Origin: a phage
DNA: 60,053 nucleotides
Strand: one strand, 5' to 3'
Assembly (NCBI GenBank): GCA_012409925.1
Contig: GCA_012409925.1_4804.1
This document shows, piece after piece, positions 1 to 33,982 of the stretch (positions within the stretch are counted from its first letter, which is position 1; every line of letters starts with the position of its first letter). Both the position numbers and the translations under genes were made by a program. The notes under the pieces are model-generated. The model had not been told where the DNA came from. It did no database searches and worked only from the letters and a program-made list of their open reading frames with translations.

Positions 1-508
1 ACGAAGACACCGCGCCTTGAGTATTGTCGGTCACATATGCGTAGCGTGACGAAGAGTAATCCCAAGCCTCTCCACGGTTGAAAATCCACTTAAGCATGCG
101 GTTGATACTTTCGATGCGGCCATCACTTGTGAGCGTCAGATAACGAAGCTTAAGAAGTATGCGCGCTTCTTCGATATTCTTTACAACCTTCCCGCCAGCA
201 CCAAAGAAGTTGCCGCCGATGTTGTCAGCACCTTCAAAGTTGTCGCGCGTCGGGCCGAACGCCCAGTTGTGCTCATAATTGCTTAAGTCCACAAAGTCTC
301 TTGGTATGCAAAGAATGTCGCACCAAATATAAATGCCCATTGCATCACAAGTATCAATGTTGAAAATGTTGTTGTACCAGTCAGTCCAAAACTGATCTTG
401 GTATCTTTCATACCAGTCACTTTTCTTTTGCACCAAAGACGTGATGTTTGGCGCATTGTTCTGCATCCACTTAAGGTTTTGCAACAGGTTTGTGTCAAAC
501 TTTTGCAT
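1..508 (-). CDS. virion (tail/baseplate-region) protein, partial; 3' end beyond window start
   Basis: Minus-strand frame opening at ATG 506-508 with GAGGAA RBS just upstream, running off the window edge (N-term MQKFDTNLLQNLKWMQNNAPN...); absent from ORF track only because truncated; lies at distal end of baseplate gene run. Confidence 0.4.
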   Translation of the reverse strand, partial: MQKFDTNLLQNLKWMQNNAPNITSLVQKKSDWYERYQDQFWTDWYNNIFNIDTCDAMGIYIWCDILCIPRDFVDLSNYEHNWAFGPTRDNFEGADNIGGNFFGAGGKVVKNIEEARILLKLRYLTLTSDGRIESINRMLKWIFNRGEAWDYSSSRYAYVTDNTQGAVSS

Positions 509-514
509 AGTTCC

Positions 515-1786
515 TCACACAAATTTAACGTTGATGAAGCCGCGCATAGTATTCGCCTTATCCCAAGGATTGGCAATCCACTCGCTGCCGTAATCGGATG
601 GATAATTTGGCGCTGCCTGTCCGCTTTTCACTGCTGCAATTTTGCAATCTTTAATATACAAGCCTGGATACTCGCAAGACACTGCTGAAGCAATTTCAAA
701 AGAAGATTGAGATTGGCCCACTGCATATCCTTGCTCGCCGTTAAAATTGCCATTGCCGTAATTCAACACAGCGGCAATAATAGATTCCGCATCGGCGGTT
801 GCGGTGCCTCTTGAAACAGTAATATCGACATACAAGTCATATATTACTGCAGTGTTGAACTTCACGAAATAAGACAGTTGCGATTCTTCGTCGACAACTT
901 CTATTCCATCAGGAGAGTTGACTGGATTGCCCTGGTTGGCAGCACCAAAGTCCCACGGCTGGCCGCCCATTTTCGCTTTGAAAATAGTCTCAGCAAAAAC
1001 TTGCTTATCGAAAGTTCCGCTTGCGCACACCCAAACACCGTTAGGCGTTGAAAAGGTGATGCCGCGTACCGTTCCAGGCAATCCCGTGTCGTTCTCCACG
1101 ACCATCACAGATTCCACGCCGTCGACCGACATGGCGCGAGCGCGAATGGCACCAAGCGATGCAATGCCCTGCTGGTAAAGACGCTTAACGCGAGCGGCCT
1201 TTAATGCTCCGTCGCTCATGTATTGCGTTCCTGGCACAGTCGTCGTTGCTGATGTTGAATACGTTCTTGACCATCCGATGACGTCATAACCTTGCACCAC
1301 TGTAAACTCTTCATCAGGGGCAACAGTGAATGAGCCATACTCTTTTGATGCAAGAGTCATATTGCTTGTCTTGCCAGTCGAAGTGATTTGAACGTCTTCC
1401 AAAACATACCAGTATGTGCCGTTTGAATCCGTCAGCAAACTTCCAGCAGGAATTTCCAACAGCGGCGTTCCTTCTGCGGTAATTCCTTTCAACATCGTGC
1501 TGATGTTTTTCGTTCGCTCAATACCAAGCAATGCCGCGATGGCATCAAGGTATACGCCATATGAATAATTAGGGTTGATGAGACTTCCCAGCTCGGCGTT
1601 GTTCTTCATGACTGAAGTTCTTGCCAAAGTCTCTGTCGCGATTAGGGTGCCTTGCGGTGTCGAGGCATCAACGTCAAGCCCGACCCCTAATGACTCAATC
1701 CATTCGCTTTGAACGTCAGCCAGCAAATCGGCTGTGTCGATGGTTATTACACCAGTGCTTACTATGTAAGAATATTGTGCACTCAT
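515..1786 (-). CDS. baseplate/tail structural protein, 423 aa (wedge/J-like candidate)
   Basis: ORF track; start overlaps stop of upstream spike-like gene; Ser/Thr/Gly-rich composition typical of baseplate proteins; assignment by position only. Confidence 0.35.
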   Translation of the reverse strand: MSAQYSYIVSTGVITIDTADLLADVQSEWIESLGVGLDVDASTPQGTLIATETLARTSVMKNNAELGSLINPNYSYGVYLDAIAALLGIERTKNISTMLKGITAEGTPLLEIPAGSLLTDSNGTYWYVLEDVQITSTGKTSNMTLASKEYGSFTVAPDEEFTVVQGYDVIGWSRTYSTSATTTVPGTQYMSDGALKAARVKRLYQQGIASLGAIRARAMSVDGVESVMVVENDTGLPGTVRGITFSTPNGVWVCASGTFDKQVFAETIFKAKMGGQPWDFGAANQGNPVNSPDGIEVVDEESQLSYFVKFNTAVIYDLYVDITVSRGTATADAESIIAAVLNYGNGNFNGEQGYAVGQSQSSFEIASAVSCEYPGLYIKDCKIAAVKSGQAAPNYPSDYGSEWIANPWDKANTMRGFINVKFV

Positions 1787-2511
1787 TCTATCATATCCCC
1801 AGTTCTGTTTCCAGGTCCGTTACCTATGTGCCCGTGAGTGGATACATTTGTGCCGCCGATTGTGGTGCCAGTCGGAAGCGTTGCCGTCGTTCCTTCTTTC
1901 CCTTCTATACCACCATTGAATGTTGCCTTTCCATTCACTATCAGTTGTTGGTCGATAGTGGTGATTGGTGTTTTCACGTTTACCCCAGCTGATGCGGTTA
2001 TGTTTATCGAGTCATCACTTAATGCAATTCGTACAGCGCCGCTGAGTGACTGAATTACCATTGAGCCTGCATCCTCTCCGCTTATGGTGTATTTTCGGAA
2101 TATATCCGGTATGAACAGTCCATCAGCGAAAGTTTTAACGCGACCATTGGTAGGCGCGGTCGGCTTCAATTCTTCAAGGAATGTCGACAACTCGCGGTCG
2201 CCAGCGAATATCCAGCCCAAATCACCTTCTTTCAAAGGAAAGTTGATTACAAAGCCGCCGCCGCCGATTGCCAATACAGGAATTGACACCAGAGGTTGAC
2301 GCTCCACTGGTTTATCATCAAGACTTACGAAATGAATAACAGGCTTTATGACTGCTAAATTCTGTTTGCGGTCATAAGATATTACTTGTGCAGGAATCAT
2401 GCCGTCAGTGGTATACTTGCCACGGTCCAGCATTCCCTGCAGCGCGGCAAACATACTTGATTTGTCAGTTTGGTTGGGGCTTGTAAGTTGAGTTAACTTC
2501 TCTGCCATCAT
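1783..2511 (-). CDS. baseplate central spike/hub-like protein
   Basis: ORF track frame; start moved to ATG at 2511 (AAGGAG RBS 3 nt upstream; track used TTG at 2535); Gly-rich central part and C-terminal beta-rich tail ending in a THGH His motif reminiscent of spike-tip domains. Confidence 0.4.
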   Translation of the reverse strand: MMAEKLTQLTSPNQTDKSSMFAALQGMLDRGKYTTDGMIPAQVISYDRKQNLAVIKPVIHFVSLDDKPVERQPLVSIPVLAIGGGGFVINFPLKEGDLGWIFAGDRELSTFLEELKPTAPTNGRVKTFADGLFIPDIFRKYTISGEDAGSMVIQSLSGAVRIALSDDSINITASAGVNVKTPITTIDQQLIVNGKATFNGGIEGKEGTTATLPTGTTIGGTNVSTHGHIGNGPGNRTGDMIE

Positions 2512-2568
2512 AGACTCCTTATATCTGATCAACAAATTATAATCTATAAGGAGTCTATAAGCAATATT

Positions 2569-3090
2569 TTAGCGATTTGACTTTGATTCTTTAATGGCAG
2601 CTTCGTTTGAGTAGGCTTCATTAAGTGATTTTGCTATTAGTCCATCAAACATAGCGAATGCATCACGCAATGAATAATATTCTTCCAATTCTTTTAACGA
2701 AGCAAGACCATTGTTTATTAGGCTTGCAACCATCGGCTCAAGATAATTAGGCTCTACGGTCGGGACGTCAGCCAAGAATCTATTTGGAATCTTAGTGCCT
2801 TTCCAATCACTGAGGAATCCAAAATTGTGCTTCTTTACCGCTTCCATTAGAACTTTCAATACAAGGTTGGGCGGCAAGTGATTTGGCACACTTTTCACTT
2901 CTTCACTGATGGCCTTCTCAGAGTTTAATCTGACTTTAGTTCCGTCATATTTAATAACATGACATTCACTTAATAATTCAAGTGGAGTTAATATGCTTAT
3001 CGCATCAACCATTTCAAACGCGTCTATTGCGCTGAATTGATGTATTTCATAAGTAACTCCAAACAGCTCAATTACTTTATTCTTTCTCAT
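2569..3090 (-). CDS. hypothetical tail/baseplate protein, 173 aa
   Basis: ORF track; tightly packed between tail genes. Confidence 0.45.
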   Translation of the reverse strand: MRKNKVIELFGVTYEIHQFSAIDAFEMVDAISILTPLELLSECHVIKYDGTKVRLNSEKAISEEVKSVPNHLPPNLVLKVLMEAVKKHNFGFLSDWKGTKIPNRFLADVPTVEPNYLEPMVASLINNGLASLKELEEYYSLRDAFAMFDGLIAKSLNEAYSNEAAIKESKSNR

Positions 3091-3092
3091 AT

Positions 3093-3965
3093 TTAGGCCG
3101 ATGGTGCAACGCCGCCCGTCACCGTAAATATATCATCACGACTTGCTAAATCATATTCAAGTTGCATGATGACAAATGTGGTGTCGTTCAAGCTTGGGTT
3201 TAAGACTGATTTGAATTTCACACCTTGGGCAAGCTTCAAATCCGCGTTATACATGCAAGTGAAGTCAGCACCCCACTCGTTCCACATCGGTATTCCGACA
3301 AATTCCTCAATCACCGTTATCTGTTCTGGATTCAGAATTTTGTCTTTATCCTTGACGATGAGCGTATCATCATCGATATATGCCGCAATAGAGTTCCTTT
3401 GATAGTTCTGAATCTCAAGCAACAAGGCGGCTGCAACATATGTTGTGCGGCCTGGGTTAACAAGGCGCTGATTGTTAATCGAAGTATCGCATATAACAGT
3501 ATCAATATCCATTTGCTTTGCCGACCACTCCACAAACTCTTTGAATGTTGGGTTTGACGGTGCAGCTTGAGTGATAAACTTAGTCCTGTTTATCTGGTTG
3601 GTGTAGCAAGTGATGCGTATGACGATGTTCGGCGGCGGCGCTGTTATCTCGACCGTTGTGACTTGCCCCTTGTAGACTAAGTTGCTACTAACAACGTTGC
3701 CTTCTCTATATCCAGCTTCAATTGTTACGTTGACATAATTCGCCGCCAATTGGCCTTGATCACGCAGACGTTTGTTGAATGCGGTGAAGTTGGAAAGCAG
3801 GTACTCTCTTAAGTACCCTGTCAATCCTGCGACTTCGATTGTGGCCTTATTTTGCACGGAAAGTGCTGCCTTTTTAATTCGGCATCTAAGCATCAATCCT
3901 TCATCAAGCACTTGGCTTGTGCCATCCGGCATAGATAAGGTGACTTTAAGGATTCTCTTTTTCAA
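3093..3965 (-). CDS. hypothetical tail protein, 290 aa (distal-tail/hub candidate)
   Basis: ORF track; immediately downstream of tape-measure gene, the usual place of distal tail/hub proteins. Confidence 0.4.
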   Translation of the reverse strand: MKKRILKVTLSMPDGTSQVLDEGLMLRCRIKKAALSVQNKATIEVAGLTGYLREYLLSNFTAFNKRLRDQGQLAANYVNVTIEAGYREGNVVSSNLVYKGQVTTVEITAPPPNIVIRITCYTNQINRTKFITQAAPSNPTFKEFVEWSAKQMDIDTVICDTSINNQRLVNPGRTTYVAAALLLEIQNYQRNSIAAYIDDDTLIVKDKDKILNPEQITVIEEFVGIPMWNEWGADFTCMYNADLKLAQGVKFKSVLNPSLNDTTFVIMQLEYDLASRDDIFTVTGGVAPSA

Positions 3966-3969
3966 ATTA

Positions 3970-6150
3970 TCACCACTTCAAAGGTGTAGCAGTAAGGTTG
4001 TTTATGTCGTTGATATCATCTTGTTCAAGCACTCGTTTCGTTTCGAATGCCGTGCTGCGTGGGTCTTGAGCGCCGTTGATGTTGATGACAACGTTTTTCT
4101 GACCCATAGTAATATCACGCCCACCAGGTCGACTATTCGCGGAAAGGTCGCCGCCGTATTTCTGGAATGCTTCAAGTTGGAATGCAGCAAGACGAGCGTT
4201 TTTCATAGCTTCGGCTTGAATGTTCGGTCTTACACCTGGAGTTGAAGCCAGTTGCATATTTTTAATATAATCCCTTTGCGTTCCAAGCTTAAGGTAAGTT
4301 TGAGCAAAGTCAATATCACCTTTGTTTACTTGTCCCTGCATCAACTGCTCAACTGGTACGTTCAGGTATCCTGCAATGGCTTCTTGCAATTGCCTGTATT
4401 GCACCGTTTGGCGCGATTGGCCTTGCACTGGTGCATAGCTGCCCTTTGGTGCTTCCGCTCCGCTACCGCTAAGTACTGGAGTGACTGGTGCACCTTGCGG
4501 CGCTGCCGTGGCATACTCACCATTGGATTGTCGGTCGAGAGCGGCCATGACCTTTCCAGGATAAGCGCGTGTATTCTTGCCCCAGCCGCTGCGGTCGTAG
4601 CCGCCGTGATACATCGTCAGCGCAAGATTCCAATCGCCGTTGGCAGCGTTTAAATACTCTTTCAACAGTTGAGCGCCGCCCATAATGTTTTGTCTAGGGT
4701 CGTTGCCGTCTGTGATGCCAAGACCCTTGAAGTTAGAAGGCATGATTTGCATCAAACCAGTCGCGCCTGCTCCGCTCACAGCATTTGGATTGAATCCAGA
4801 TTCGACTTCAGTTACAGCCTTCATCATTGCTACAGGTATGCCATAGCGTTTTGAAGCTTCCTCATATATTGAGTCATATGCTGTCGGATTCCCTGACCCA
4901 AGATTATTCCCTACGGTCGCGCCAGTATTCAATGCTGGTGTTCCAGGCATCGCGGATTGCCCTGCGCTGCGCCCGATTTCACCTGCCCATGCCGCCCAAG
5001 CTTGACGCTCATCAATCACGCCAGCAAAGGTTGACACAGCACTTGAAAAAAGATTTATATCACGAGTAAAAAGAGCCTGTGCAGAACGTTGTTCAGCGGC
5101 GTTCTGTTCTTGATTCCTTTGGCGTTTAACATCGCCATCAGCCATTTGGGTGATCCATCGGTCAACCGCTCTTTCGTGACGTTCGTTGACAGCGGCCTGC
5201 TTGTCGAACGGATGTTTCAAGTCAGCGATGAAGTTGTCGACAAATTCGCTCCATCCGTCAGACATTCTCTGAAACATCATCTGGAATCCTTCGACTGTAT
5301 CAGCAGTTTTGCTGACAAGAGTCGAGAATGCAGGCATGACATTTTCACCAATTACCAACTCAATACGCCGCCAATCTTCTTGAATTTGCCCCATACTATT
5401 TCGTATAGTCTCAAGAGCAGCTTGCTGTCTTTGCAGCTTCGCGGTTTCTTCGTCGCTTATGCGCGTGCTTTCTTTCACAGACTGGTTGCGCTCACGAAGG
5501 GCGCGGACTTCATCGGCGGTAAAACCTGCCAGAGCACCAATAGCACGAGCGGTTTGCTCATTCACACTTCTCAGCTTTGTTCCAATTTCATCAAGCAGCT
5601 GATTCGTGTCTTTGATGCCGCCGTTACTGTTGAAAGGACTTGTCCCCATCTTGTTCAACAACAAGTTGTCCTTGTTCATCACATCGGGGTTGGTGTATGC
5701 ATTGAATGCCAGATTAGAAGCTTTGCTGATTAAGTCTCGCGACCCCTGTGCGCCAAGGATGCCACCTGAACTTTCATTCAACTGTCGTTGTAGTTGTTCG
5801 ACACCCATTGGAGAGAGTCCGGCTTCAAAACCAAGCTTTCTTTGCGCTTCGTATTCTTTTCGAACATCAACGATGGATTTGACGACGACAGCCAATCCTG
5901 CGACAACAGGGACGAGCGCGGCAAAACGATATGTCAGCCGCGCAAGTATTCCGTCAATTGACCCTAGCTCACCAGTAAGCGGCTTTAGCTCGCCAAAAAC
6001 ATCTTTGAATGCTCCAGAGAAATCTTTGCCAGCGGATTTTGCCTTTTTGCTTGTCTGATCAACCTTATCTTGCAATTGCTCAAGACGATTGATGGACTCT
6101 TTCAAGTCCACCGTATATTGAAGCACAAATTTTTCTAATGAGTCAGACAC
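3970..6150 (-). CDS. tail tape-measure protein with internal lytic transglycosylase (SLT) domain
   Basis: 726 aa, coiled-coil-like N-terminal two thirds with a hydrophobic segment (LVPVVAGLAVVVKSIV); SLT signature ...AVTEVESGFNPNAVSGAGATGLMQIMP...TMYHGGY... at approx 4530-4875. Confidence 0.8.
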   Translation of the reverse strand: MSDSLEKFVLQYTVDLKESINRLEQLQDKVDQTSKKAKSAGKDFSGAFKDVFGELKPLTGELGSIDGILARLTYRFAALVPVVAGLAVVVKSIVDVRKEYEAQRKLGFEAGLSPMGVEQLQRQLNESSGGILGAQGSRDLISKASNLAFNAYTNPDVMNKDNLLLNKMGTSPFNSNGGIKDTNQLLDEIGTKLRSVNEQTARAIGALAGFTADEVRALRERNQSVKESTRISDEETAKLQRQQAALETIRNSMGQIQEDWRRIELVIGENVMPAFSTLVSKTADTVEGFQMMFQRMSDGWSEFVDNFIADLKHPFDKQAAVNERHERAVDRWITQMADGDVKRQRNQEQNAAEQRSAQALFTRDINLFSSAVSTFAGVIDERQAWAAWAGEIGRSAGQSAMPGTPALNTGATVGNNLGSGNPTAYDSIYEEASKRYGIPVAMMKAVTEVESGFNPNAVSGAGATGLMQIMPSNFKGLGITDGNDPRQNIMGGAQLLKEYLNAANGDWNLALTMYHGGYDRSGWGKNTRAYPGKVMAALDRQSNGEYATAAPQGAPVTPVLSGSGAEAPKGSYAPVQGQSRQTVQYRQLQEAIAGYLNVPVEQLMQGQVNKGDIDFAQTYLKLGTQRDYIKNMQLASTPGVRPNIQAEAMKNARLAAFQLEAFQKYGGDLSANSRPGGRDITMGQKNVVININGAQDPRSTAFETKRVLEQDDINDINNLTATPLKW

Positions 6151-16874: not shown

Positions 16875-16984
16875 CCACCCTCAAATAAGTATTGTGTATT
16901 ATATCTAATGAAAAAAACTTAGGCAAACAATAATTATGGTTTGAATATGTATAACAACCGATATAGCCGCGCCTTAATTAGTGT

Positions 16985-17260
16985 GATACGGATGATACGG
17001 ATAAAATGAGGCGTATTTTTATCCGTATCGGTGTATAAGCCGCGCTATCACTGGTGTGCTACGGATGATACGGATGATACGGATACTTTTCATATATAAG
17101 AGTTTATAAAAAAATAAAATTAAATTAGATATATAATTTTAAATTAATTTATTTGAATTCCTATATAGTACGGCGGCAACGCGTATCATCCGTATCATCC
17201 GTAAGATTCTTTTGAAAACAACAACTTACTTGATACGGATGATACGTCATTATACGTATA
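16985..17260. repeat. iteron cluster A: about 10 copies of GATACGGAT/ATCCGTATC in both orientations flanking a ~70-bp AT-rich block
   Basis: Direct reading: tandem copies at 16985-17002 and 17061-17086; inverse copies at 17021-17029 and 17182-17205; further copies 17232-17250; AT-rich block 17091-17170. Confidence 0.8.
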
Positions 17261-17437
17261 AAACTCGCGGCAATCCTTTGCCGATGAATTCAGTGAATAT
17301 TAAATAGCACTCCTGCCACTAAAACGCCAATCAACATCGAGTCATAAACAGCCCATTTCCAAGAAAGCAAAGAGTTGCAATTAATATTTCGCACTTTAAC
17401 ATAACGTGACTGAATAATCTTTTGCATAACTTCCTCT

Positions 17438-28969: not shown

Positions 28970-29383
28970 ATGTCAAATAAAAATGATTCTATGAGCCATA
29001 CTTACACTAAAGGCAGCGGCACTGCTTTTGGTTCCAGCATCAAACTTGACGCTCCTGGTTTGCACATCCACAACGTTAATGAAAAATCTGATGTAAGCAG
29101 TCGTGATTTGTCTTTGGTTCTTAAAAATCAACTCGCCTTGGAATCACGGTTGGATAATATTGAGAAGTCGCTGGAAAGTTTGCGCGACCAGCTTTATGGG
29201 CCTTGTCCTGTTGCGGATGATTCAAAGACAGTTAATGTAAATTACGGATTGATCGATAATATGCTTGGAGTCACGTCGCGCTCTGCTGTTAAGGCATATA
29301 ATATTGAAAATCTGATTGGGCAGATTGCTGATGGCTTCGGCACATCTTGCCTTACAGGTATTGAAAGCGATTTCAGTGAATAG
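28970..29383 (+). CDS. hypothetical protein, 137 aa
   Basis: ATG 28970 with AAAGG RBS in track ORF 28904..29383; followed by terminator. Confidence 0.45.
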   Translation: MSNKNDSMSHTYTKGSGTAFGSSIKLDAPGLHIHNVNEKSDVSSRDLSLVLKNQLALESRLDNIEKSLESLRDQLYGPCPVADDSKTVNVNYGLIDNMLGVTSRSAVKAYNIENLIGQIADGFGTSCLTGIESDFSE

Positions 29384-29403
29384 TTGGTAGTGTTGATTTA
29401 ACC

Positions 29404-29445
29404 GTGAATCGTGGGTCGTGGGTCGTGGGTCGTGGGTCGTGGGTC
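29404..29445. repeat. perfect heptamer tandem repeat (GTGGGTC)x5 preceded by one degenerate unit GTGAATC
   Basis: Direct reading: units at 29411, 29418, 29425, 29432, 29439. Confidence 0.95.
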
Positions 29446-29467
29446 GCTTAGTGCGGCCCTTTATTTT
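29441..29467 (+). terminator. rho-independent terminator overlapping last repeat unit
   Basis: GGGTCGC-ttagt-GCGGCCC (one mismatch) followed by TTTATTTT. Confidence 0.45.
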
Positions 29468-30062
29468 GCCTGCCGCGCAGGAGTGTACTGCAAATTTCCT
29501 GTGGGTACAAAATAGTACGGTACTGTCTAGGACTTTTTCTTTGAAAGTTAGTGGACCAAATGTGTCGTATTTTGATTAGTGTACCGCAAATTCCATCAAG
29601 TACCAAAACGCACCAAAAGACCCATGCCATAAAAACCACACGAACGCAATAATCAATCGCCGTTACAGTTTCCAGCGTTACAATTCGAAAGCGAATGATT
29701 CGACGCATAATAATATGAAGCATAATGATTCGAAAGCGAACGATTGCGTGTAGGATAATATCGGTGGGGATTATTCTAGATGCATGTAATTTCGCATGCG
29801 TACTATTTTCGGACGAAGGGTCGGCATATTCCTCGTTTTAGTTCGGAACGAAGGGAAAGTTTTGCGCCTTTATAAAACAACGACTTACGCGACCCGCCCT
29901 AACGGTCCGATATAGGTGTCTATATAAAACAAGGACTTACACGATGTTCTCCATTTAACGTAATACCTGTTATGCGAACTAAGGCGCATCTCGACGAAGA
30001 TTATGCGACGACGAAGGGAAGGATAAAGGAGTTTTCGCGGAGAAGCGCATCGAGATAGGGAC

Positions 30063-30088
30063 GAAGAAAAGCCGCGACTAAGCGCGGC
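30063..30088 (-). terminator. rho-independent terminator ending the minus-strand island operon
   Basis: On minus strand GCCGCG-cttagt-CGCGGC followed by TTTTCTTC. Confidence 0.5.
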
Positions 30089-30114
30089 CTATTAGTAACG
30101 GTGGGTAATTATAA

Positions 30115-30324
30115 TTAAAGGAATAATCCGGCGCGTTTAATTTGTCCCAGGACGTTATCGCGCTTACGACGCATAACCGCGTATTTAACCTCTTCTTCGT
30201 ATCCCCAGCCGCCGATGGATAACATCGCGTTCATATTATCGCATAATTCCTTAAGTTCGCGGAACATATCGATGACGGCGGTACGATGGGCGCGCGCATT
30301 AAGAGAGTTATTCATATTATTCAT
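30115..30324 (-). CDS. small protein, 69 aa
   Basis: ORF track; GGAG RBS overlapping stop of upstream gene; TAA stop. Confidence 0.5.
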   Translation of the reverse strand: MNNMNNSLNARAHRTAVIDMFRELKELCDNMNAMLSIGGWGYEEEVKYAVMRRKRDNVLGQIKRAGLFL

Positions 30325-30335
30325 TTTTCTTCTCC

Positions 30336-30626
30336 TTAAAGGCTTACGATTTTAAAGAAAGTTACTTCGCCGCCGAGTTGCGGGACAGCGATATATTCGC
30401 CGCCGATTTCGGTAATCGTATAGACGAAGCCGTTGATGGTTACGCGGTAGGATACTACGTCCTCGTCGCGATACTTGTAAAGGTCGAGGAGGTTGATCGG
30501 CTCATAAATAGACTCGATAGTCGCGTCTACGTTAGAGAGATAAACGCTCTCTAAGGTTTCGCCAAATACGTTAGAGTTTTCGGAAGTCTCGACGCGAGCG
30601 GAACGGATAGCGGCTAAAGTAATCAT
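30336..30626 (-). CDS. small acidic protein, 96 aa, paralogue of 31262..31546
   Basis: ORF track; AGGAG RBS; net charge about -10; no His/Cys/Trp; shares VY..NVD.TIE and VN.NG(Y/F)...EIG segments with the divergently transcribed paralogue. Confidence 0.6.
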   Translation of the reverse strand: MITLAAIRSARVETSENSNVFGETLESVYLSNVDATIESIYEPINLLDLYKYRDEDVVSYRVTINGFVYTITEIGGEYIAVPQLGGEVTFFKIVSL

Positions 30627-30693
30627 AATAATCTCCTAGCTGGGAGGGCGGGTAGCGACCTATTCGCTACCTCATCCCCTCTCGATATAAAAC

Positions 30694-30722
30694 ATTATAG
30701 TCTTAGTGTACGAAGAAGTAAA
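30694..30722 (-). promoter_or_regulatory. near-consensus sigma70-type promoter (island copy 1)
   Basis: Minus strand reads GTGCTTTACT-17 nt-TATAAT; -35 at 30717-30722, -10 at 30694-30699. Confidence 0.55.
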
Positions 30723-30733
30723 GCACTTTTTCG

Positions 30734-31036
30734 TTATTCTGCGATAAAATATTTATAAGCCTTATCGCCTTCTACGTCGATATACTCGACGATAATTAAC
30801 GCTTCGCCGCGCGGCGTAACCGTCTCGATAAGGGTAACGGCTTCGTCGTCGGTCTTCGCGAATCGGATTGCGCTACGTTCGGCGTATTTAATTTCGTCGA
30901 AGGAGAGGCCGACGAAAGCGACGGCGCGGACCTTAATGGCGCTAGATTCTAGTTCCGCGTTAACGGCGGCGATAAGAGAGCGAACGGTTAAGCGGTCTTC
31001 GTCGTAAGTAAGGATAGAAGAGATTAAAGTGGTCAT
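30734..31036 (-). CDS. small acidic protein, 100 aa
   Basis: ORF track frame; start at ATG 31036 (GGGAG RBS); no His/Cys/Trp/Gln; TAA stop. Confidence 0.55.
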   Translation of the reverse strand: MTTLISSILTYDEDRLTVRSLIAAVNAELESSAIKVRAVAFVGLSFDEIKYAERSAIRFAKTDDEAVTLIETVTPRGEALIIVEYIDVEGDKAYKYFIAE

Positions 31037-31093
31037 AATAAAACTCCCGATGCTATTAGAAGGAAGGGCCATCGCCCGTCTCGATATAAACAA

Positions 31094-31121
31094 GTATACG
31101 CGAGTGTACGAAGAAGTAAAG
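31094..31121 (-). promoter_or_regulatory. near-consensus sigma70-type promoter (island copy 2)
   Basis: Minus strand reads CTTTACT-16 nt-TATACT with the same TTCTTCGTACAC spacer core as copy 1. Confidence 0.5.
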
Positions 31122-31165
31122 AAAAAAAGATAAAATAATTTATCGCATTTTTATCGAAAAAGTGC

Positions 31166-31193
31166 TTTACTTTTTTCTACACTATATTATAAT
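31166..31193 (+). promoter_or_regulatory. near-consensus sigma70-type promoter (island copy 3)
   Basis: AGTGCTTTACT-16 nt-TATAAT; -35 at 31166-31171, -10 at 31188-31193; shares GTGCTTTACT and TACACT with copies 1 and 2. Confidence 0.55.
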
Positions 31194-31261
31194 GTACTCA
31201 TATCGGGACGGGATGAGTTAACGAATAGGTCGTTAACGCCTCTCCCAACTAGGAGTTTAAA

Positions 31262-31546
31262 ATGGCTATTCTTAACGTTTCTTCTATCCGTAACGCTATC
31301 GTCGAGAACTACGGCGTAAAACAAATTTTATCCGAAGTCTACGCCGCGAACGTAGACCAAACTATCGAGGCGGGTGGGGTAACGGTCGCCGAGGCTTTTA
31401 AACTTTACGCGGCGTTACCGGAATCGGACCGCGAAGCCTTCGAAGTAAACGTTAACGGATATTTCTTCGAAGCGGTCGAAATCGGTAATATCTTACTCGT
31501 TATGGGCGAAGAAGAATTTGAGACCTTCTCCCTCGTCGAAGCGTAA
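31262..31546 (+). CDS. small acidic protein, 94 aa, paralogue of 30336..30626
   Basis: ORF track; AGGAG RBS; net charge about -15; no His/Cys/Trp. Confidence 0.6.
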   Translation: MAILNVSSIRNAIVENYGVKQILSEVYAANVDQTIEAGGVTVAEAFKLYAALPESDREAFEVNVNGYFFEAVEIGNILLVMGEEEFETFSLVEA

Positions 31547-31626
31547 GAGAGGATTTTTAGAGCGTCGTGCGCGGCGCTTTAATAAAATTCTTTCGCGCCT
31601 AGCGCCCTAACAAATAGGAGTTTATT

Positions 31627-32253
31627 ATGGTTAGCTTAAATCGTTTCTCGACTAGCGGCGACGTTATCGCAACTAAGACCGCCGACCTCGTTGCATTTTA
31701 TAATGCAAATTCCGGTTCGAAGCCGATTAAGAAATTTGCGGACCGCCGGACCGCCGAGACTCGCGTAATCGCGTTAATCGAGTCCTTAAACGCGCTCGAT
31801 GAGCCATCCAATGAATCGCCCATTCCCGACGCGAAGCCGCGCGAGGAAGTGTCCAGCGATGTAAAAACGCATAAGGCGCGTGCGGTCGTTAAAAAGGCTG
31901 AGCCGACCCAGGAAGAACTCGACGCGATGAGCGATGAAGAATATGAAGCCTTCGTTAAGAGCGGCTTAAACGATAGTGCAAATTGCGTAGTACAAAATGG
32001 AACTCCTTCCCATCGCCGTTCGAATAGCGAAGGTATTGCAAAAAGTTGGGATAATAAGGAAGTGGCGCAAAAGCGTCTTACCCGTAACGGCGTTATGGTC
32101 GAGGGTGTAGGCGAGTTCAAATCGGTCCGCGCAGCATTCGCCGCGCTGGGCTTACCGGACAGCAAGCATATTCGCTTCCGCATGAAGCTTAAAGAAGCTG
32201 GACGCTTGAACTTCGAGTTCGGCAACAAGTCCTTCACCTTCCAGATTATCTAA
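31627..32253 (+). CDS. hypothetical protein, 208 aa
   Basis: ORF track; AGGAG RBS; composition switches mid-gene from the island dialect to ordinary coding. Confidence 0.5.
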   Translation: MVSLNRFSTSGDVIATKTADLVAFYNANSGSKPIKKFADRRTAETRVIALIESLNALDEPSNESPIPDAKPREEVSSDVKTHKARAVVKKAEPTQEELDAMSDEEYEAFVKSGLNDSANCVVQNGTPSHRRSNSEGIAKSWDNKEVAQKRLTRNGVMVEGVGEFKSVRAAFAALGLPDSKHIRFRMKLKEAGRLNFEFGNKSFTFQII

Positions 32254-32260
32254 TCAAATG

Positions 32261-32285
32261 GCGGCCCTTCGAGGTCGCTTTTCAT
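32261..32285 (+). terminator. terminator-like hairpin
   Basis: GCGGCC-cttcga-GGTCGC (one G-U pair) followed by TTTTCAT. Confidence 0.35.
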
Positions 32286-32303
32286 AGTGCAAATTGGTGG
32301 CTT

Positions 32304-32567
32304 ATGAACACGCTTATTCTCATCGCTACGTTGTCCATCGGAAGTGGTCGCACCTTATCGCTGTACGACCATAGTGCAAATTGCGCTTACCCTACGCGCG
32401 TTGCGGCAATAGTTAATAGTGCAAATCGAATGCTATTCGAGACTTGTTGGCGGGTCGATAACGAGAAAGGGCGCATCATCTTAGGTTATAGTGCGAATCT
32501 GCTGGTGGAGTCGTTCGATTGGACGGTTGAAGGTCGTAAATTGTTACGTAAGGTGACTAAAAGATGA
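32304..32567 (+). CDS. hypothetical protein, 87 aa (carries three in-frame motif copies)
   Basis: ORF track; GGTGG RBS; ATAGTGCAAAT-type motif occurs three times in frame as Ser-Ala-Asn, so coding status is uncertain. Confidence 0.35.
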   Translation: MNTLILIATLSIGSGRTLSLYDHSANCAYPTRVAAIVNSANRMLFETCWRVDNEKGRIILGYSANLLVESFDWTVEGRKLLRKVTKR

Positions 32568-32681
32568 CTTATAATAATACACTTTCTAACGCGTTTATGG
32601 TTGTAACCTTCCCCGTCGTATTACCGATGGCCCTAGAAGTGGAGAAAATGTGTTCTAGGGCCGTTTTATAGTGCAAATTGG

Positions 32682-33155
32682 CTAGTGGCGGGAGAATTGC
32701 TCGCCTTCTTTGGCCGCCTCTCCGAAATCCTTGTAGAAATCGTCCATGGAACGGCCCATTTTACTATTGCCGTTTTCATCAATCATCGTGATGCCGTAGA
32801 TGATGTTCAGTTCACGAATAGCATTAAGCTTGGCTGACGCCGCGACTTCTGGATCACGCACAAGCTTGACCAAATTGTGAATTGCACCTTTTACGCTCCA
32901 CAAATCCTTGAGTGGCATCTCTTCCATACGCTTTTTGAAGCGCATCTTGTAGTATGGATTGCGTTGCGTGCAAAGGATTCGCTGGCCAGTGTAGTTATCC
33001 GTTGCAACTTCCATTCCAAATACTAGTGCAAAAGCTGCGCGCATGTCATGGCCCTGAATAACAAGGTCAATGAACTCATCGAATAAAGCCTGATTGTGCT
33101 CTGCAAATCGCGGGTCTTCAAAGTCTTCAGGCATCGCTACATAATCTTGACTCAT
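32682..33155 (-). CDS. hypothetical protein, 157 aa (small-terminase candidate, speculative)
   Basis: ORF track frame from ATG 33155 (MSQDYVAMPEDFEDPRF...); ordinary codon usage; start codon abuts three tandem motif copies. Confidence 0.4.
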   Translation of the reverse strand: MSQDYVAMPEDFEDPRFAEHNQALFDEFIDLVIQGHDMRAAFALVFGMEVATDNYTGQRILCTQRNPYYKMRFKKRMEEMPLKDLWSVKGAIHNLVKLVRDPEVAASAKLNAIRELNIIYGITMIDENGNSKMGRSMDDFYKDFGEAAKEGEQFSRH

Positions 33156-33280
33156 AGTGCAAAATCCCATAGTGCAAATTAATAGTGTGAATTATACAAT
33201 GGATGGACATTATATTCAAGTGCAGATTGATGTTCATTATGGCTATAAACATACACAAATCATAGTGCTGAATGAATAGC

Positions 33281-33874
33281 GGACCGTGGTGCGTGGTGTA
33301 CTGTTTGATACGTATAAAATAAATCCATCCCTTTTGCCGCTTGTTATGCAAATCAATGACTTAGCCGCTGCTGGCTGGTTGAAGCGTATCATGACGTATC
33401 ATCCGTATTGCCGCAAGTCTTTGTTTTTACTTATATCTTACGGATAATACGTATAAATATAAGTTTAGTATAAGTATGAGGATGTAGAAAAAAAATTAAT
33501 TTAAATGTTTTTAAAATGGAGTTAATTAATTTTTAGAATTATTCTGGTTACAATAAGAAAAAATGGCGTATCATCCGTATCATCCGTATGAGTGTACCAG
33601 TAGAATCCAGGCGCGGCGCACCTTACAGCCATGATACGTCTCAATACGGCCAAAAACCTATCCGTAAGAGTGTACGCATCAACCAAAGAATCCAGGCGCG
33701 GCGCACTCTTCCACACCACACACCACGGTTCAATCTCCAAAATCCACACACTAAAAGTCACAATCACCGTATCATTCTCCAAAAATAAATCCAAATTTCC
33801 ATTTTATTTATTATTTTCATCCACAATATCCTAAATTCCATCCGTATCAACCAAGCCTCAACCCACCACGGTCC
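33281..33874. repeat. iteron cluster B: ATCCGTATC-type repeats, 19-bp direct repeat and AT-rich block, bracketed by 11-bp inverted repeat
   Basis: GCGTATCATCCGTATCATCCGTA at 33567-33589 identical to 17181-17203; further copies at 33385-33410, 33437-33457, 33631-33649, 33659-33668, 33766-33777 and 33841-33851; GAATCCAGGCGCGGCGCAC at 33603 and 33688; GGACCGTGGTG (33281) / CACCACGGTCC (33864). Confidence 0.8.
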
Positions 33875-33982
33875 ACGCCACTCACTTCAAAATTTCCATC
33901 AAAAACGACAAAAGGCCGCATAAAGCGACCAATTGTACACGTCCCATTATTCAAAACACGTAAAACAGTGTCCGTTTATTTG

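What the first reader, a model, noticed from the sequence alone, without database searches (positions are those of the whole stretch)
29446..30062. 0.6 kb ORF-free segment with a GTAC cluster and degenerate ACGAAGGG-type repeats
No ORF of 60 aa or more on either strand, unusual in this dense genome. It contains six GTAC tetramers within 29485-29603, a duplicated ATTCGAAAGCGAA(T/C)GATT (29681-29740), duplicated TATAAAACAA(C/G)GACTTAC (29871-29940) and four (G)GACGAAGGG-like units (29811-30070). It lies between the heptamer-repeat/terminator and the terminator closing the island operon. It could encode a structured non-coding RNA, or mark the packaging/genome-end region, which would make the island the first DNA to enter the cell.
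Basis: partly seen in the sequence, partly recalled or inferred. Interest (0 to 1): 0.6.

Follow-up and report, generated by a model that had tools for sequence, protein, structure and literature searches.

The report
Phage terminal-repeat boundary with end box
This gene-free stretch is where the long repeat at the ends of an E. coli phage chromosome stops, so it holds the spot where the packaged DNA's right end is cut; sister phages already have this boundary mapped, but the conserved DNA signal beside the cut appears undescribed in the papers I could search.

Summary
The window is a Wifcevirus, an E. coli myovirus of about 68 kb with a ~3.7-3.9 kb direct terminal repeat (DTR). The sequence features are real: six GTAC in 120 nt (P≈0.001) and the duplicated motifs. 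"No ORF ≥60 aa" is wrong, because a 91-aa ORF exists, but it is broken in all 17 relatives.

The inner DTR boundary, which is the physical right genome end, lies inside the finding at 29615|29616. It was mapped in four relatives, twice by PhageTerm read starts. The left end lies at 33517|33518.

The GTAC cluster is two copies of a ~27-nt box (AGTGTACYGCAAATT…GTAC). The proximal copy sits 12 nt outside the cut. A 72-nt block across the cut (29573-29644) is conserved in Kylevirus phages. In Kyle the mapped DTR end lies at the same offset. Neighbouring proteins there are only ~41-48% identical.

There is no Rfam hit, no excess RNA folding stability and no covariation.

Verdict:
- The segment is a cis-acting DNA end module.
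- The genome-end reading is supported.
- The non-coding RNA reading is not supported.
- The boundary itself was already annotated in relatives; the conserved end box is the new detail.

The parts
29409..29446 (+). Heptamer tandem array (TCGTGGG, 5.4 copies). It is context only. Copy number varies: 6-7 copies in this window and Mansfield, 1-2 in the other 16 relatives.
29441..29468 (+). Terminator-like hairpin plus T-tract closing the plus-strand tail-fibre operon. It forms the outer limit of the conserved untranslated module.
29482..29508 (.). End box B, the distal copy: AGTGTACTGCAAATTTCCTGTGGGTAC. It is followed by the palindrome AGTACGGTACT (29514-29524).
29535..29536 (.). Alternative repeat boundary reported only in phage WFC (DTR 3784 bp), 80 nt further out than in the other four phages and next to box B.
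29578..29603 (.). End box A, the proximal copy: AGTGTACCGCAAATTCCATCAAGTAC. It ends 12 nt outside the cut. The same box sits at the same offset from the mapped DTR end of Pantoea phage Kyle.
29573..29644 (.). Terminus-spanning block conserved across genera. It is 77% identical to Pantoea phage PA1: alignment score 51 against a shuffle maximum of 31.
29615..29616 (.). Inferred right physical genome end, which is the inner boundary of the direct terminal repeat: ...CAAAACGCACCA|AAAGACCCATGCC.
29616..33517 (.). Inferred direct terminal repeat (3902 bp), in reverse orientation relative to the GenBank records of relatives.
29683..29745 (.). Two 45-nt-spaced units, each carrying the palindrome ATTCG-AAAG-CGAA(T/C). 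One unit is precisely deleted in phage Bas100. The unit is conserved in Kyle with a symmetric change (ATTAG-N4-CTAAT).
29787..29808 (.). Patch AAATAGTACGCATGCGAAATTA (physical orientation) conserved with PA1. It overlaps a weak hairpin at 29780-29801.
29871..29940 (.). Two copies of TATAAAACAA(C/G)GACTTAC, 52 nt apart and nearly invariant within the genus. No function is assigned.
30060..30090 (-). Terminator closing the minus-strand early-type operon of the repeat.
32682..33170 (-). Small terminase subunit gene, inside the repeat and about 350 nt from the left genome end.
33517..33518 (.). Inferred left physical genome end: ...TTTTTAAAAT|GGAGTTAATT. The junction is conserved in all relatives and recognisably in Kyle and PA1.

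Best explanation
The segment is the untranslated 'end module' of a Wifcevirus chromosome and it acts as DNA, not as RNA or protein. It straddles the inner boundary of a ~3.9-kb direct terminal repeat (window 29616-33517).

Virion DNA runs from 33517 downward, once round the genome, and ends at 29616. So the last ~450 bp of the packaged DNA is the repeat-rich part (29616-30062). The GTAC cluster (29482-29615) lies just beyond the cut and is present once per chromosome, next to the left repeat copy.

The GTAC cluster is two tandem copies of a ~27-nt box. The proximal copy, together with ~30 nt inside the repeat, forms a 72-nt block that has been held constant across genera. I infer that this block is the signal at which the phage terminase (large subunit plus the small subunit encoded at 32682-33170) makes the sequence-specific right-end cut or nick that defines the repeat.

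The palindromic units just inside the cut are likely accessory protein-binding sites for the same end-forming process.

Shown:
- The position of the boundary, by homology to mapped termini.
- Conservation of the block.
- Absence of coding or RNA signals.

Inferred:
- That terminase recognises the box.
- Whether this end is the initiation or the termination cut.
- How the repeat is duplicated.
For: The window belongs to Wifcevirus at 94-98% identity.

Boundary position:
- Three records carry both repeat copies with 0 mismatches: WFH 3701 bp, SP13 3899 bp, Ro157lw 3533 bp. Together with the PhageTerm-annotated Mansfield record (1..3673), all end at the same sequence, which equals window 29615|29616.
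- The Ro157lw and Mansfield termini came from read-start analysis in separate laboratories.
- The left-end junction is present at 33517|33518, with a small-terminase homologue 350 nt inside (PDB 7UXE, E=6e-34).

Conservation within the genus:
- 29447-30113 is 91-98% identical per 100-nt tile (97-98% in five of six) and present in all 17 relatives.
- The DNA on both sides is mosaic or absent in many relatives.

Conservation across genera:
- Pantoea phage Kyle has a small terminase only 43% identical and a 3603-bp repeat.
- It carries GTAC 12 nt outside its cut, followed by AATTTCACAGTACACTAATCA. This is the same box at the same offset.
- Local alignment scores are 36 (Kyle) and 51 (PA1), against shuffle maxima of 28 and 31, with 0 of 300 shuffles reaching them.
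- The box is 77% identical, against 61-67% for the adjacent genes.
- The inner palindromic unit is also conserved (score 32, 0 of 200 shuffles) with a symmetry-preserving change.

Other support:
- The box occurs nowhere else in the window.
- PB1 has a homologous small terminase, but its genus (Pbunavirus) is reported as headful-packaging, and PB1 lacks the box.
Against: - No sequencing reads or virion DNA of this particular phage were available, so its own termini are inferred by homology.
- Phage WFC reports a boundary 80 nt further out (29535|29536). The cut may therefore be heterogeneous, or one record may be imprecise.
- Seven of 17 relatives have lost the GTAC nearest the cut (GTAG). One of them, SP13, still reports the canonical boundary, so that tetramer is not essential.
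- The left and right junctions share no convincing common motif, so a single recognition sequence for both cuts is not evident.
- No protein-DNA binding data exist.
- Cross-genus support rests on two Kylevirus genomes only. In one of them (PA1) the termini are predicted, not mapped.
Confidence: 0.75

Rival explanations
1. T5-like DNA-entry control region. The conserved untranslated repeats at the inner edge of the terminal repeat pause or regulate DNA injection, so that repeat-encoded early genes are expressed before the rest of the genome enters. This is compatible with the boundary also being here.
For: - The architecture parallels T5 Repeat Region 3, a 1.2-kb untranslated, repeat-rich region. 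It lies mostly inside the terminal repeat, overruns 270 bp into unique DNA, is more conserved than the repeat's ORFs, and holds the injection stop signal.
- Here a 0.67-kb untranslated module lies ~500 bp inside and ~170 bp outside the repeat and is more uniformly conserved than its neighbours.
- The repeat genes have sigma-70-type promoters, consistent with early expression.
Against: - There are no DnaA boxes in or near the segment; the window has three in all, none nearby.
- No repeat-encoded protein matched a family of known entry function.
- No two-step transfer has been reported for this genus in the papers read.
- The most conserved sub-element sits exactly on the cut, which points to end formation.
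Confidence: 0.12
2. The segment encodes a structured non-coding RNA, for example an early sRNA transcribed from the weak plus-strand promoter-like sites at 29685-29759.
For: - The segment is conserved and untranslated.
- Three weak plus-strand promoter-like sites (9/12 matches) are followed by a weak hairpin plus T-run at 29780-29801.
Against: - There is no Rfam match.
- Folding energy is no better than shuffles on either strand: z +1.08 and +0.88.
- The covariation term is about 0.
- The number of promoter-like sites is within the shuffle expectation: 4 found against 2.3±1.5.
- The strongest cross-genus conservation lies on the DNA cut site, not in a foldable domain.
Confidence: 0.05
3. One or more very small proteins (31-39 aa; ORFs 29725-29841, 29780-29875, 29796-29915, 29885-29989) are encoded here, as annotated in some relatives (Mansfield, kaset, SP13).
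For: These short ORFs are intact in most of the 17 relatives. A few GenBank records annotate them.
Against: - Intactness is expected at 95-98% nucleotide identity.
- The ORFs overlap one another in different frames.
- By eye, none has a convincing Shine-Dalgarno sequence.
- Start codons are lost in some relatives (ATA in Ro157lw, FEC19, WFH and Bas98).
- Most curated records annotate nothing here.
- The only long ORF (91 aa) is broken in all relatives.
Confidence: 0.04
4. Replication origin or other iteron-type element, with the direct repeats (45- and 52-nt spacing) binding an initiator.
For: Several direct repeats and palindromes cluster in a gene-free region.
Against: - There are no DnaA boxes.
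- The segment is not notably AT-rich: the 29-30 kb window has GC 0.436 against about 0.46 overall.
- There are only two copies of each repeat, and one 45-nt unit is dispensable in Bas100.
- There is no cumulative GC-skew extremum at this position.
Confidence: 0.04

Closest known systems
Annotated direct terminal repeats of Wifcevirus phages (Mansfield MK903282 repeat_region 1..3673; WFC/WFH 'terminal repeat of about 3.7 kb'; Ro157lw 3533 bp)
   Same: The genus and both junction sequences are the same. The window's 29615|29616 and 33517|33518 are the homologous positions.
   Different: Those reports give only the length and position of the repeat. None of the papers I could read describes the untranslated module, the duplicated box or its conservation outside the genus. 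This window is a distinct isolate, with a best match of ~98%.
Phage T5 Repeat Region 3 / injection stop signal (Davison, bioRxiv 10.1101/866236)
   Same: Both are large, untranslated, repeat- and palindrome-rich regions at the inner end of a long terminal repeat. Both overrun into unique DNA and are better conserved than the repeat's own ORFs.
   Different: There is no sequence similarity, and the DnaA boxes that mark the T5 region are absent here. The module is half the size, and two-step injection is not known for Wifcevirus. T5 is a siphovirus unrelated to this lineage.
Phage T7/T3 concatemer junction (terminal repeat flanked by short-repeat arrays, with pac signals). From my own knowledge of Dunn & Studier 1983 and Chung & Hinkle 1990; not re-read here.
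   Same: Both have exact, sequence-specific ends with a direct terminal repeat. Both have short repeated sequences immediately flanking the repeat. Both need the repeat to be duplicated during processing of concatemers.
   Different: The T7 repeat is 160 bp and non-coding, whereas this one is 3.9 kb and carries about seven genes, including the small terminase gene. There is no sequence similarity. The heptamer array here is variable in copy number and apparently dispensable.
Pbunavirus (PB1/E217) packaging system; E217 small terminase structure PDB 7UXE
   Same: The small terminase is homologous (41% identity; E=6e-34 to 7UXE). It is preceded by a long gene-free region.
   Different: Pbunaviruses are reported to package by headful with permuted ends, although earlier reports conflict. 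PB1 has no multi-gene island after the small terminase gene and no detectable end box.
Lambda cos (cosQ-cosN-cosB). From my own knowledge.
   Same: It is a composite cis site in which the cut position is flanked by separate recognition elements for terminase.
   Different: Lambda makes one staggered cut that yields cohesive ends. Here two different sites 3.9 kb apart define a terminal repeat.

Membership tests
Inner boundary of a long direct terminal repeat (physical genome end), Wifcevirus type | The junction sequence matches termini mapped in related phages | tested here: met
   WFH, SP13, Ro157lw and Mansfield all end at the sequence found at window 29615|29616. The flanks are invariant in 17 relatives.
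Inner boundary of a long direct terminal repeat (physical genome end), Wifcevirus type | The second (left) boundary is present at the expected distance, with the small terminase gene just inside | tested here: met
   AAAAT|GGAGTTAA lies at 33517|33518, which gives a 3902-bp repeat. The small terminase gene is at 32682-33170.
Inner boundary of a long direct terminal repeat (physical genome end), Wifcevirus type | Doubled read coverage and read-start peaks in this phage's own sequencing data | not testable with these tools
   No reads are available. Relatives were analysed with PhageTerm by their authors.
Terminase recognition/cleavage site (pac/cos-type cis element) | Sits at the mapped cut and is unique in the genome | tested here: met
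   Box A ends 12 nt from the cut. The full box occurs only at 29483 and 29579 in the window.
Terminase recognition/cleavage site (pac/cos-type cis element) | Conserved beyond the neighbouring sequence in distant relatives that use the same end type | tested here: met
   In Kyle the box is at the same offset from the mapped end. Alignment scores are 36 and 51 against shuffle maxima of 28 and 31. Identity is 77% against 61-67% for adjacent genes.
Terminase recognition/cleavage site (pac/cos-type cis element) | Absent from relatives that package by another strategy | tested here: met
   PB1 gives only chance-level scores of about 22. Pbunavirus is reported as headful. Caveats: one genome was tested, and its composition is divergent.
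Terminase recognition/cleavage site (pac/cos-type cis element) | Bound and/or cut by the terminase subunits; mutation shifts or abolishes the end | not testable with these tools
   This needs EMSA, footprinting, in vitro cleavage and phage mutagenesis.
Structured non-coding RNA | Match to a curated RNA family | tested here: not met
   No match at gathering threshold in the whole window. Inside 29446-30062 there is nothing at E≤1.
Structured non-coding RNA | Folding more stable than shuffled sequence | tested here: not met
   z = +1.08 on the plus strand and +0.88 on the minus strand.
Structured non-coding RNA | Compensatory base changes supporting helices | tested here: inconclusive
   The covariation term is at most about 1 kcal/mol in magnitude in all blocks and on both strands, but the sequences are 95-98% identical, so power is low.
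T5-type injection-stop untranslated repeat region | Large untranslated repeat-rich region at the inner end of the terminal repeat, overrunning into unique DNA and more conserved than the repeat's ORFs | tested here: met
   The module 29447-30113 lies ~500 bp inside and ~170 bp outside the repeat. Tile identity is 91-98% and it is present in 17 of 17 relatives, against mosaic flanks.
T5-type injection-stop untranslated repeat region | Paired DnaA boxes | tested here: not met
   TTWTNCACA has three matches in the window, none between 29 and 34 kb.
T5-type injection-stop untranslated repeat region | Two-step DNA transfer dependent on repeat-encoded proteins | not testable with these tools
   The repeat-encoded proteins have no informative family matches, and no entry experiments are available.
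Protein-coding gene | Reading frame preserved in relatives, and a family match | tested here: not met
   The 91-aa ORF is broken in 17 of 17 relatives and the 53-aa ORF likewise. There is no PHROG or Pfam hit.

The most novel reading that the evidence does not exclude
A bipartite 'end box' (GTAC-N7/8-AATTY-N3/4-GTACACT) lies 12 nt outside the cut, with palindromic units just inside. It is the dedicated signal that programs the right-end cut of long-terminal-repeat myoviruses of the Wifcevirus/Kylevirus lineage. Its gain or loss would be what separates these exact-end phages from their headful-packaging Pbunavirus relatives, which use a homologous small terminase. The duplicated distal box would act as a back-up cut site, which would explain the WFC boundary. 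If so, this gives a genetically tractable E. coli system for asking how kilobase-long terminal repeats are generated. The Ro157lw paper (citing Casjens & Gilcrease 2009) still describes that mechanism as unknown.
Probability: 0.4. Interest if true: 0.6.

Novelty: new member of a known kind. Interest (0 to 1): 0.4.

Why it matters
For annotation, the result fixes the true chromosome ends of this phage. The assembly is circularly permuted with the repeat collapsed. The result also shows that seven or so genes, including the small terminase gene, are present twice per virion and sit at whichever end enters the cell first.

For mechanism, how long terminal repeats are cut and duplicated is unresolved. 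A 72-nt block conserved across genera exactly at a mapped end, with a tandem spare copy and a natural variant (WFC) that appears to use a different position, is a concrete candidate recognition site. It can be mutated in a fast-growing E. coli phage.

For practice, the box gives a testable prediction of termini in unmapped relatives. For example, in Pantoea phage PA1 the repeat should run from about PP537389 position 42732 to about 46745. The box also marks a region that phage engineers should not disrupt.

Tried and rejected
- **Non-coding RNA.** Rfam at gathering and permissive thresholds, RNA folding z-scores on both strands and an RNAalifold covariation term were all negative.
- **Coding.** I checked ORF integrity in 17 relatives and ran PHROG and Pfam scans. 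The 91-aa ORF is a private artefact.
- **DnaA boxes as in the T5 stop signal.** None were found.
- **A motif shared by the outer flanks of both ends.**
  - AGTGTAC occurs just outside both ends in this window, but it is not kept in the other left-flank types of relatives.
  - GTATCATCCGTA clusters near the left end, but also at 17.0-17.25 kb, so it is not specific to the ends.
- **A 'cut 12 nt after GTAC' rule to explain WFC.** It fits numerically for the third GTAC but not for the position equivalent to box A. SP13 has lost the proximal GTAC yet keeps the canonical end, so I left this as unexplained heterogeneity.
- **TATAAAACAA as a phage promoter motif.** It is not recurrent upstream of genes.
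- **ACGAAGGG units.** They are not above chance.
- **More lineages carrying the box in IMG/VR.**
  - The 14-mer scan gave mostly chance hits.
  - The gapped pattern gave 11 loci.
  - Only the Wifcevirus and Kyle contigs have matching flanks or related proteins.
- **The box in PB1.** It is absent.
- **Identifying the source record.** No phage record is identical to the window.

Full report
**Identity of the window**

A megablast of 29300-30200 hits 29 phage records, all Wifcevirus (E. coli/Shigella myoviruses of 67-72 kb), at 94-98% identity. No record is identical to the window, so it is a distinct isolate. The genus was defined by Korf et al. 2019, who reported a terminal repeat of about 3.7 kb for WFC and WFH. 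It is a distant relative of Pbunavirus.

**The observation**

Confirmed features:
- GTAC occurs at 29485, 29505, 29515, 29520, 29581 and 29600.
- GTAC is under-represented in the window (134 observed, 231 expected), and six in 120 nt occurs only here.
- With 134 sites placed at random, such a cluster arises in about 0.09% of trials.
- The duplicated 18-mers are real and rare: 29683-29700/29728-29745 and 29871-29888/29923-29940.
- Convergent terminator-like hairpins bracket the segment at 29441-29459 (+) and 30090-30069 (-).
- A heptamer array lies at 29409-29446.

Weaker or wrong points:
- The ACGAAGGG-type units are not above chance, and the last one is the tail of the minus-strand terminator.
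- The statement that no ORF of 60 aa exists is wrong mechanically: a 91-aa ORF lies at 29448-29723 on the minus strand.
- In an 18-sequence alignment the window carries a private 1-nt deletion near 29543.
- That ORF is interrupted in all 17 relatives and has no PHROG or Pfam match.
- Most GenBank records annotate no gene here.

**What the segment is**

Several relatives were deposited with both copies of the direct terminal repeat. Comparing the record ends gives exact repeats with no mismatches: 3701 bp (WFH), 3784 bp (WFC), 3899 bp (SP13) and 3533 bp (Ro157lw). Mansfield carries an annotated repeat at 1..3673 predicted by PhageTerm.

| Phage | Right-end junction (GenBank orientation) | Window equivalent |
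|---|---|---|
| WFH, Ro157lw, Mansfield | ...GGCATGGGTCTTT\|TGGTGCGTTTTGGTAC... | 29615\|29616 |
| SP13 | same, within one base of a T-run | 29615\|29616 |
| WFC | 80 nt further out | 29535\|29536 |

- The Ro157lw and Mansfield termini came from read-start statistics in two unrelated laboratories.
- The left end is ...TTAACTCC|ATTTT... in all records, which is window 33517|33518.
- By homology the window therefore holds a collapsed 3902-bp terminal repeat at 29616-33517, in reverse orientation to the GenBank records.
- The finding straddles the inner boundary of that repeat.
- The repeat contains about seven small genes. One is a small terminase homologue 350 nt from the left end (PDB 7UXE, E=6e-34).
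- The repeat also contains sigma-70-type promoters.

**Conservation within the genus**

- The stretch from the plus-strand terminator to 30113 is present in all 17 relatives, at 91-98% identity per 100-nt tile (97-98% in five of the six tiles).
- The last tail-fibre-module gene upstream (29001-29400) is absent or different in most relatives.
- The first gene downstream (30115-30324) is present in only 6 of 17.
- The heptamer array is expanded only here and in Mansfield.
- Bas100 lacks exactly one 45-nt unit (29684-29728).
- Two of the six GTACs (29505 and 29600) are lost in many relatives. The motif AGTGTACYGCAAATT (two copies, 96 nt apart) is invariant apart from the Y position and one substitution.
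- The 'GTAC cluster' is therefore better described as two tandem copies of a ~27-nt box, at 29482-29508 and 29578-29603, plus a palindrome AGTACGGTACT.

**Conservation across genera**

The small terminase protein finds homologues at about 41-43% identity in Pbunavirus and in Pantoea phage Kyle.

Kyle:
- It was deposited with both repeat copies (3603 bp, 0 mismatches) and has its small terminase gene 357 nt from the left end.
- Its right junction is ...GTGTGCCCTT|GACCGCGATTTAGTACCTGGTCCAATTTCACAGTACACTAATCAG...
- Wifcevirus has ...GGGTCTTT|TGGTGCGTTTTGGTACTTGATGRAATTTGCRGTACACTAATCAAA...
- This is the same box, in the same orientation, with the GTAC 12 nt beyond the cut in both.

PA1 (a second Kylevirus, repeat collapsed):
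- The best local alignment of the whole untranslated module is window 29573-29644 against PA1 locus 5218-5290. It scores 51 against a shuffle maximum of 31, with 0 of 300 shuffles reaching it. It spans the cut and includes about 30 nt inside the repeat.
- The Kyle alignment scores 36 against a shuffle maximum of 28.
- PA1 also has a second, distal box, like Wifcevirus.

Strength of the signal:
- The block is 77% identical, whereas the adjacent genes are 61-67% identical at the nucleotide level and 27-48% at the protein level.
- Inside the repeat, the palindromic 45-nt unit (window 29703-29744) and the patch 29787-29808 also align significantly with Kyle and PA1 (score 32, 0 of 200 shuffles).
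- The palindrome ATTCG-N4-CGAAT in Wifcevirus appears as ATTAG-N4-CTAAT in Kyle, a change that preserves symmetry.
- The left-end junctions of Kyle and PA1 also resemble the Wifcevirus one.

Limits of the lineage:
- PB1 shows no box.
- Pbunaviruses are reported, with some conflict, to package by headful.
- An IMG/VR scan with a gapped box pattern returned only Wifcevirus and Kyle contigs plus unrelated chance hits.

**Alternatives tested**

- RNA: there is no Rfam family, the folding energies are slightly worse than shuffles on both strands, and the covariation term is negligible.
- Promoters: only weak 9/12 sites are present, at a number within shuffle expectation.
- T5-like stop signal:
  - The architecture fits remarkably well. 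T5 has an untranslated, repeat-rich region, mostly inside the repeat, that overruns into unique DNA and is more conserved than the repeat's ORFs.
  - The DnaA boxes that characterise the T5 region are absent, and nothing is known about entry kinetics.
  - It remains a compatible secondary function.
- Origin of replication: there are no DnaA boxes, no marked AT-richness and no skew extremum.

**Mechanism proposed**

Shown:
- The position of the repeat boundary.
- The unique box next to it.
- Cross-genus conservation of that box at a fixed offset from a mapped end.
- The absence of coding or RNA signals.

Inferred:
- During processing of replicated concatemers, terminase recognises the block 29573-29644, possibly helped by the palindromic units inside the repeat.
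- It then makes the sequence-specific cut or nick that creates the right end.
- The different, also conserved, left-end junction next to the small terminase gene serves the other cut.

Each virion needs two repeat copies, while a simple head-to-tail concatemer would hold only one per genome unit. So the repeat must either be duplicated by strand-displacement synthesis from nicks at the two boundaries (the T7-type model, from general knowledge) or alternate units must be sacrificed. The data here cannot distinguish these, nor say which end initiates packaging or enters the cell first. The WFC boundary next to the distal box suggests that the spare copy can be used, but this rests on one record.

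**Novelty and score**

The existence and approximate length of the repeat in this genus are published, and one relative has the boundary annotated. The main reading is therefore a new member of a known kind. The conserved, duplicated end box at a fixed distance from the cut, shared with Kylevirus, was not described in any paper I could find or read. It gives a concrete handle on an open mechanistic question. Interest is moderate (0.4).

Noticed in passing
window 16987-17245 and 33396-33588: The 12-mer GTATCATCCGTA has nine exact copies in the window, in both orientations and often as overlapping tandems. All lie in two gene-free regions upstream of minus-strand genes: 16875-17437, and the region around the left genome end. 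With up to 2 mismatches there are 14 matches against 3.2 expected. The 17-kb region also resembles the left-end outer flank of WFH-type relatives (…GCGGCGACGCGTATCATCCGTATCATCCGTAAGAT…). This looks like a binding site for a phage regulator or a phage-specific promoter element.
   Followed up: partly
window 30706-30723 (-), 31104-31121 (-), 31165-31182 (+): Two identical 18-mers, CTTTACTTCTTCGTACAC, form the -35/spacer part of strong sigma-70-type promoters: TTTACT-N17-TATAAT and TTTACT-N16-TATACT. They lie upstream of the minus-strand genes of the terminal repeat. A third, diverged copy faces the plus-strand genes. These are likely early promoters.
   Followed up: partly
window 33518-33930: The gene-free DNA just outside the left genome end is hypervariable. 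At least four unrelated versions exist among relatives, and none of the 17 aligned relatives matches this window's version. Short motifs are nevertheless kept: ATCCGTATCATCCGTA, GTGTAC and AATCCAGGCGCGGCGCA. This contrasts with the highly conserved module at the other boundary.
   Followed up: partly
window 29535|29536 versus 29615|29616: Phage WFC reports a terminal repeat that ends 80 nt further out than in WFH (same laboratory), Ro157lw, Mansfield and SP13. This is either real heterogeneity or alternative use of the distal box, or it is an imprecise record.
   Followed up: partly
window 29409-29446: The heptamer array (GTGGGTC)n behaves like a microsatellite, with 6-7 copies in this window and Mansfield and 1-2 in the other relatives. 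It directly abuts the terminator stem.
   Followed up: yes
window 29684-29728 (relative Bas100): Phage HansTraber_Bas100 has a clean 45-nt deletion that removes exactly one of the two palindromic units, so one unit is dispensable. In the second unit this window has C at 29741, where all 17 relatives have T, which weakens the palindrome.
   Followed up: yes
window 29441-29465 and 30064-30090: The two convergent terminators that bracket the module are inverted copies of one another, with related stems and the loop CTTAGT (21-nt arms, 71% complementary).
   Followed up: no
whole window: The palindromic tetramer GTAC is depleted genome-wide (134 observed against 231 expected from base composition), which makes the local cluster stand out more. 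The cause was not examined; restriction avoidance is one possibility.
   Followed up: no
window 30115-30324 (-): The 69-aa gene next to the module matches phrog_10377 ('transcriptional regulator'). It is present in only 6 of 17 relatives, so the gene content of the terminal repeat is mosaic.
   Followed up: partly
L145 (PB1 NC_011810) locus 790-1711: PB1 has a ~920-nt gene-free region upstream of its small terminase homologue. It contains an AT-rich AAATTAAT-type element and a GGTACACTA motif about 470-510 nt upstream of the gene. This is loosely reminiscent of the Wifcevirus left-end region and could bear on the conflicting reports about Pbunavirus genome ends.
   Followed up: no
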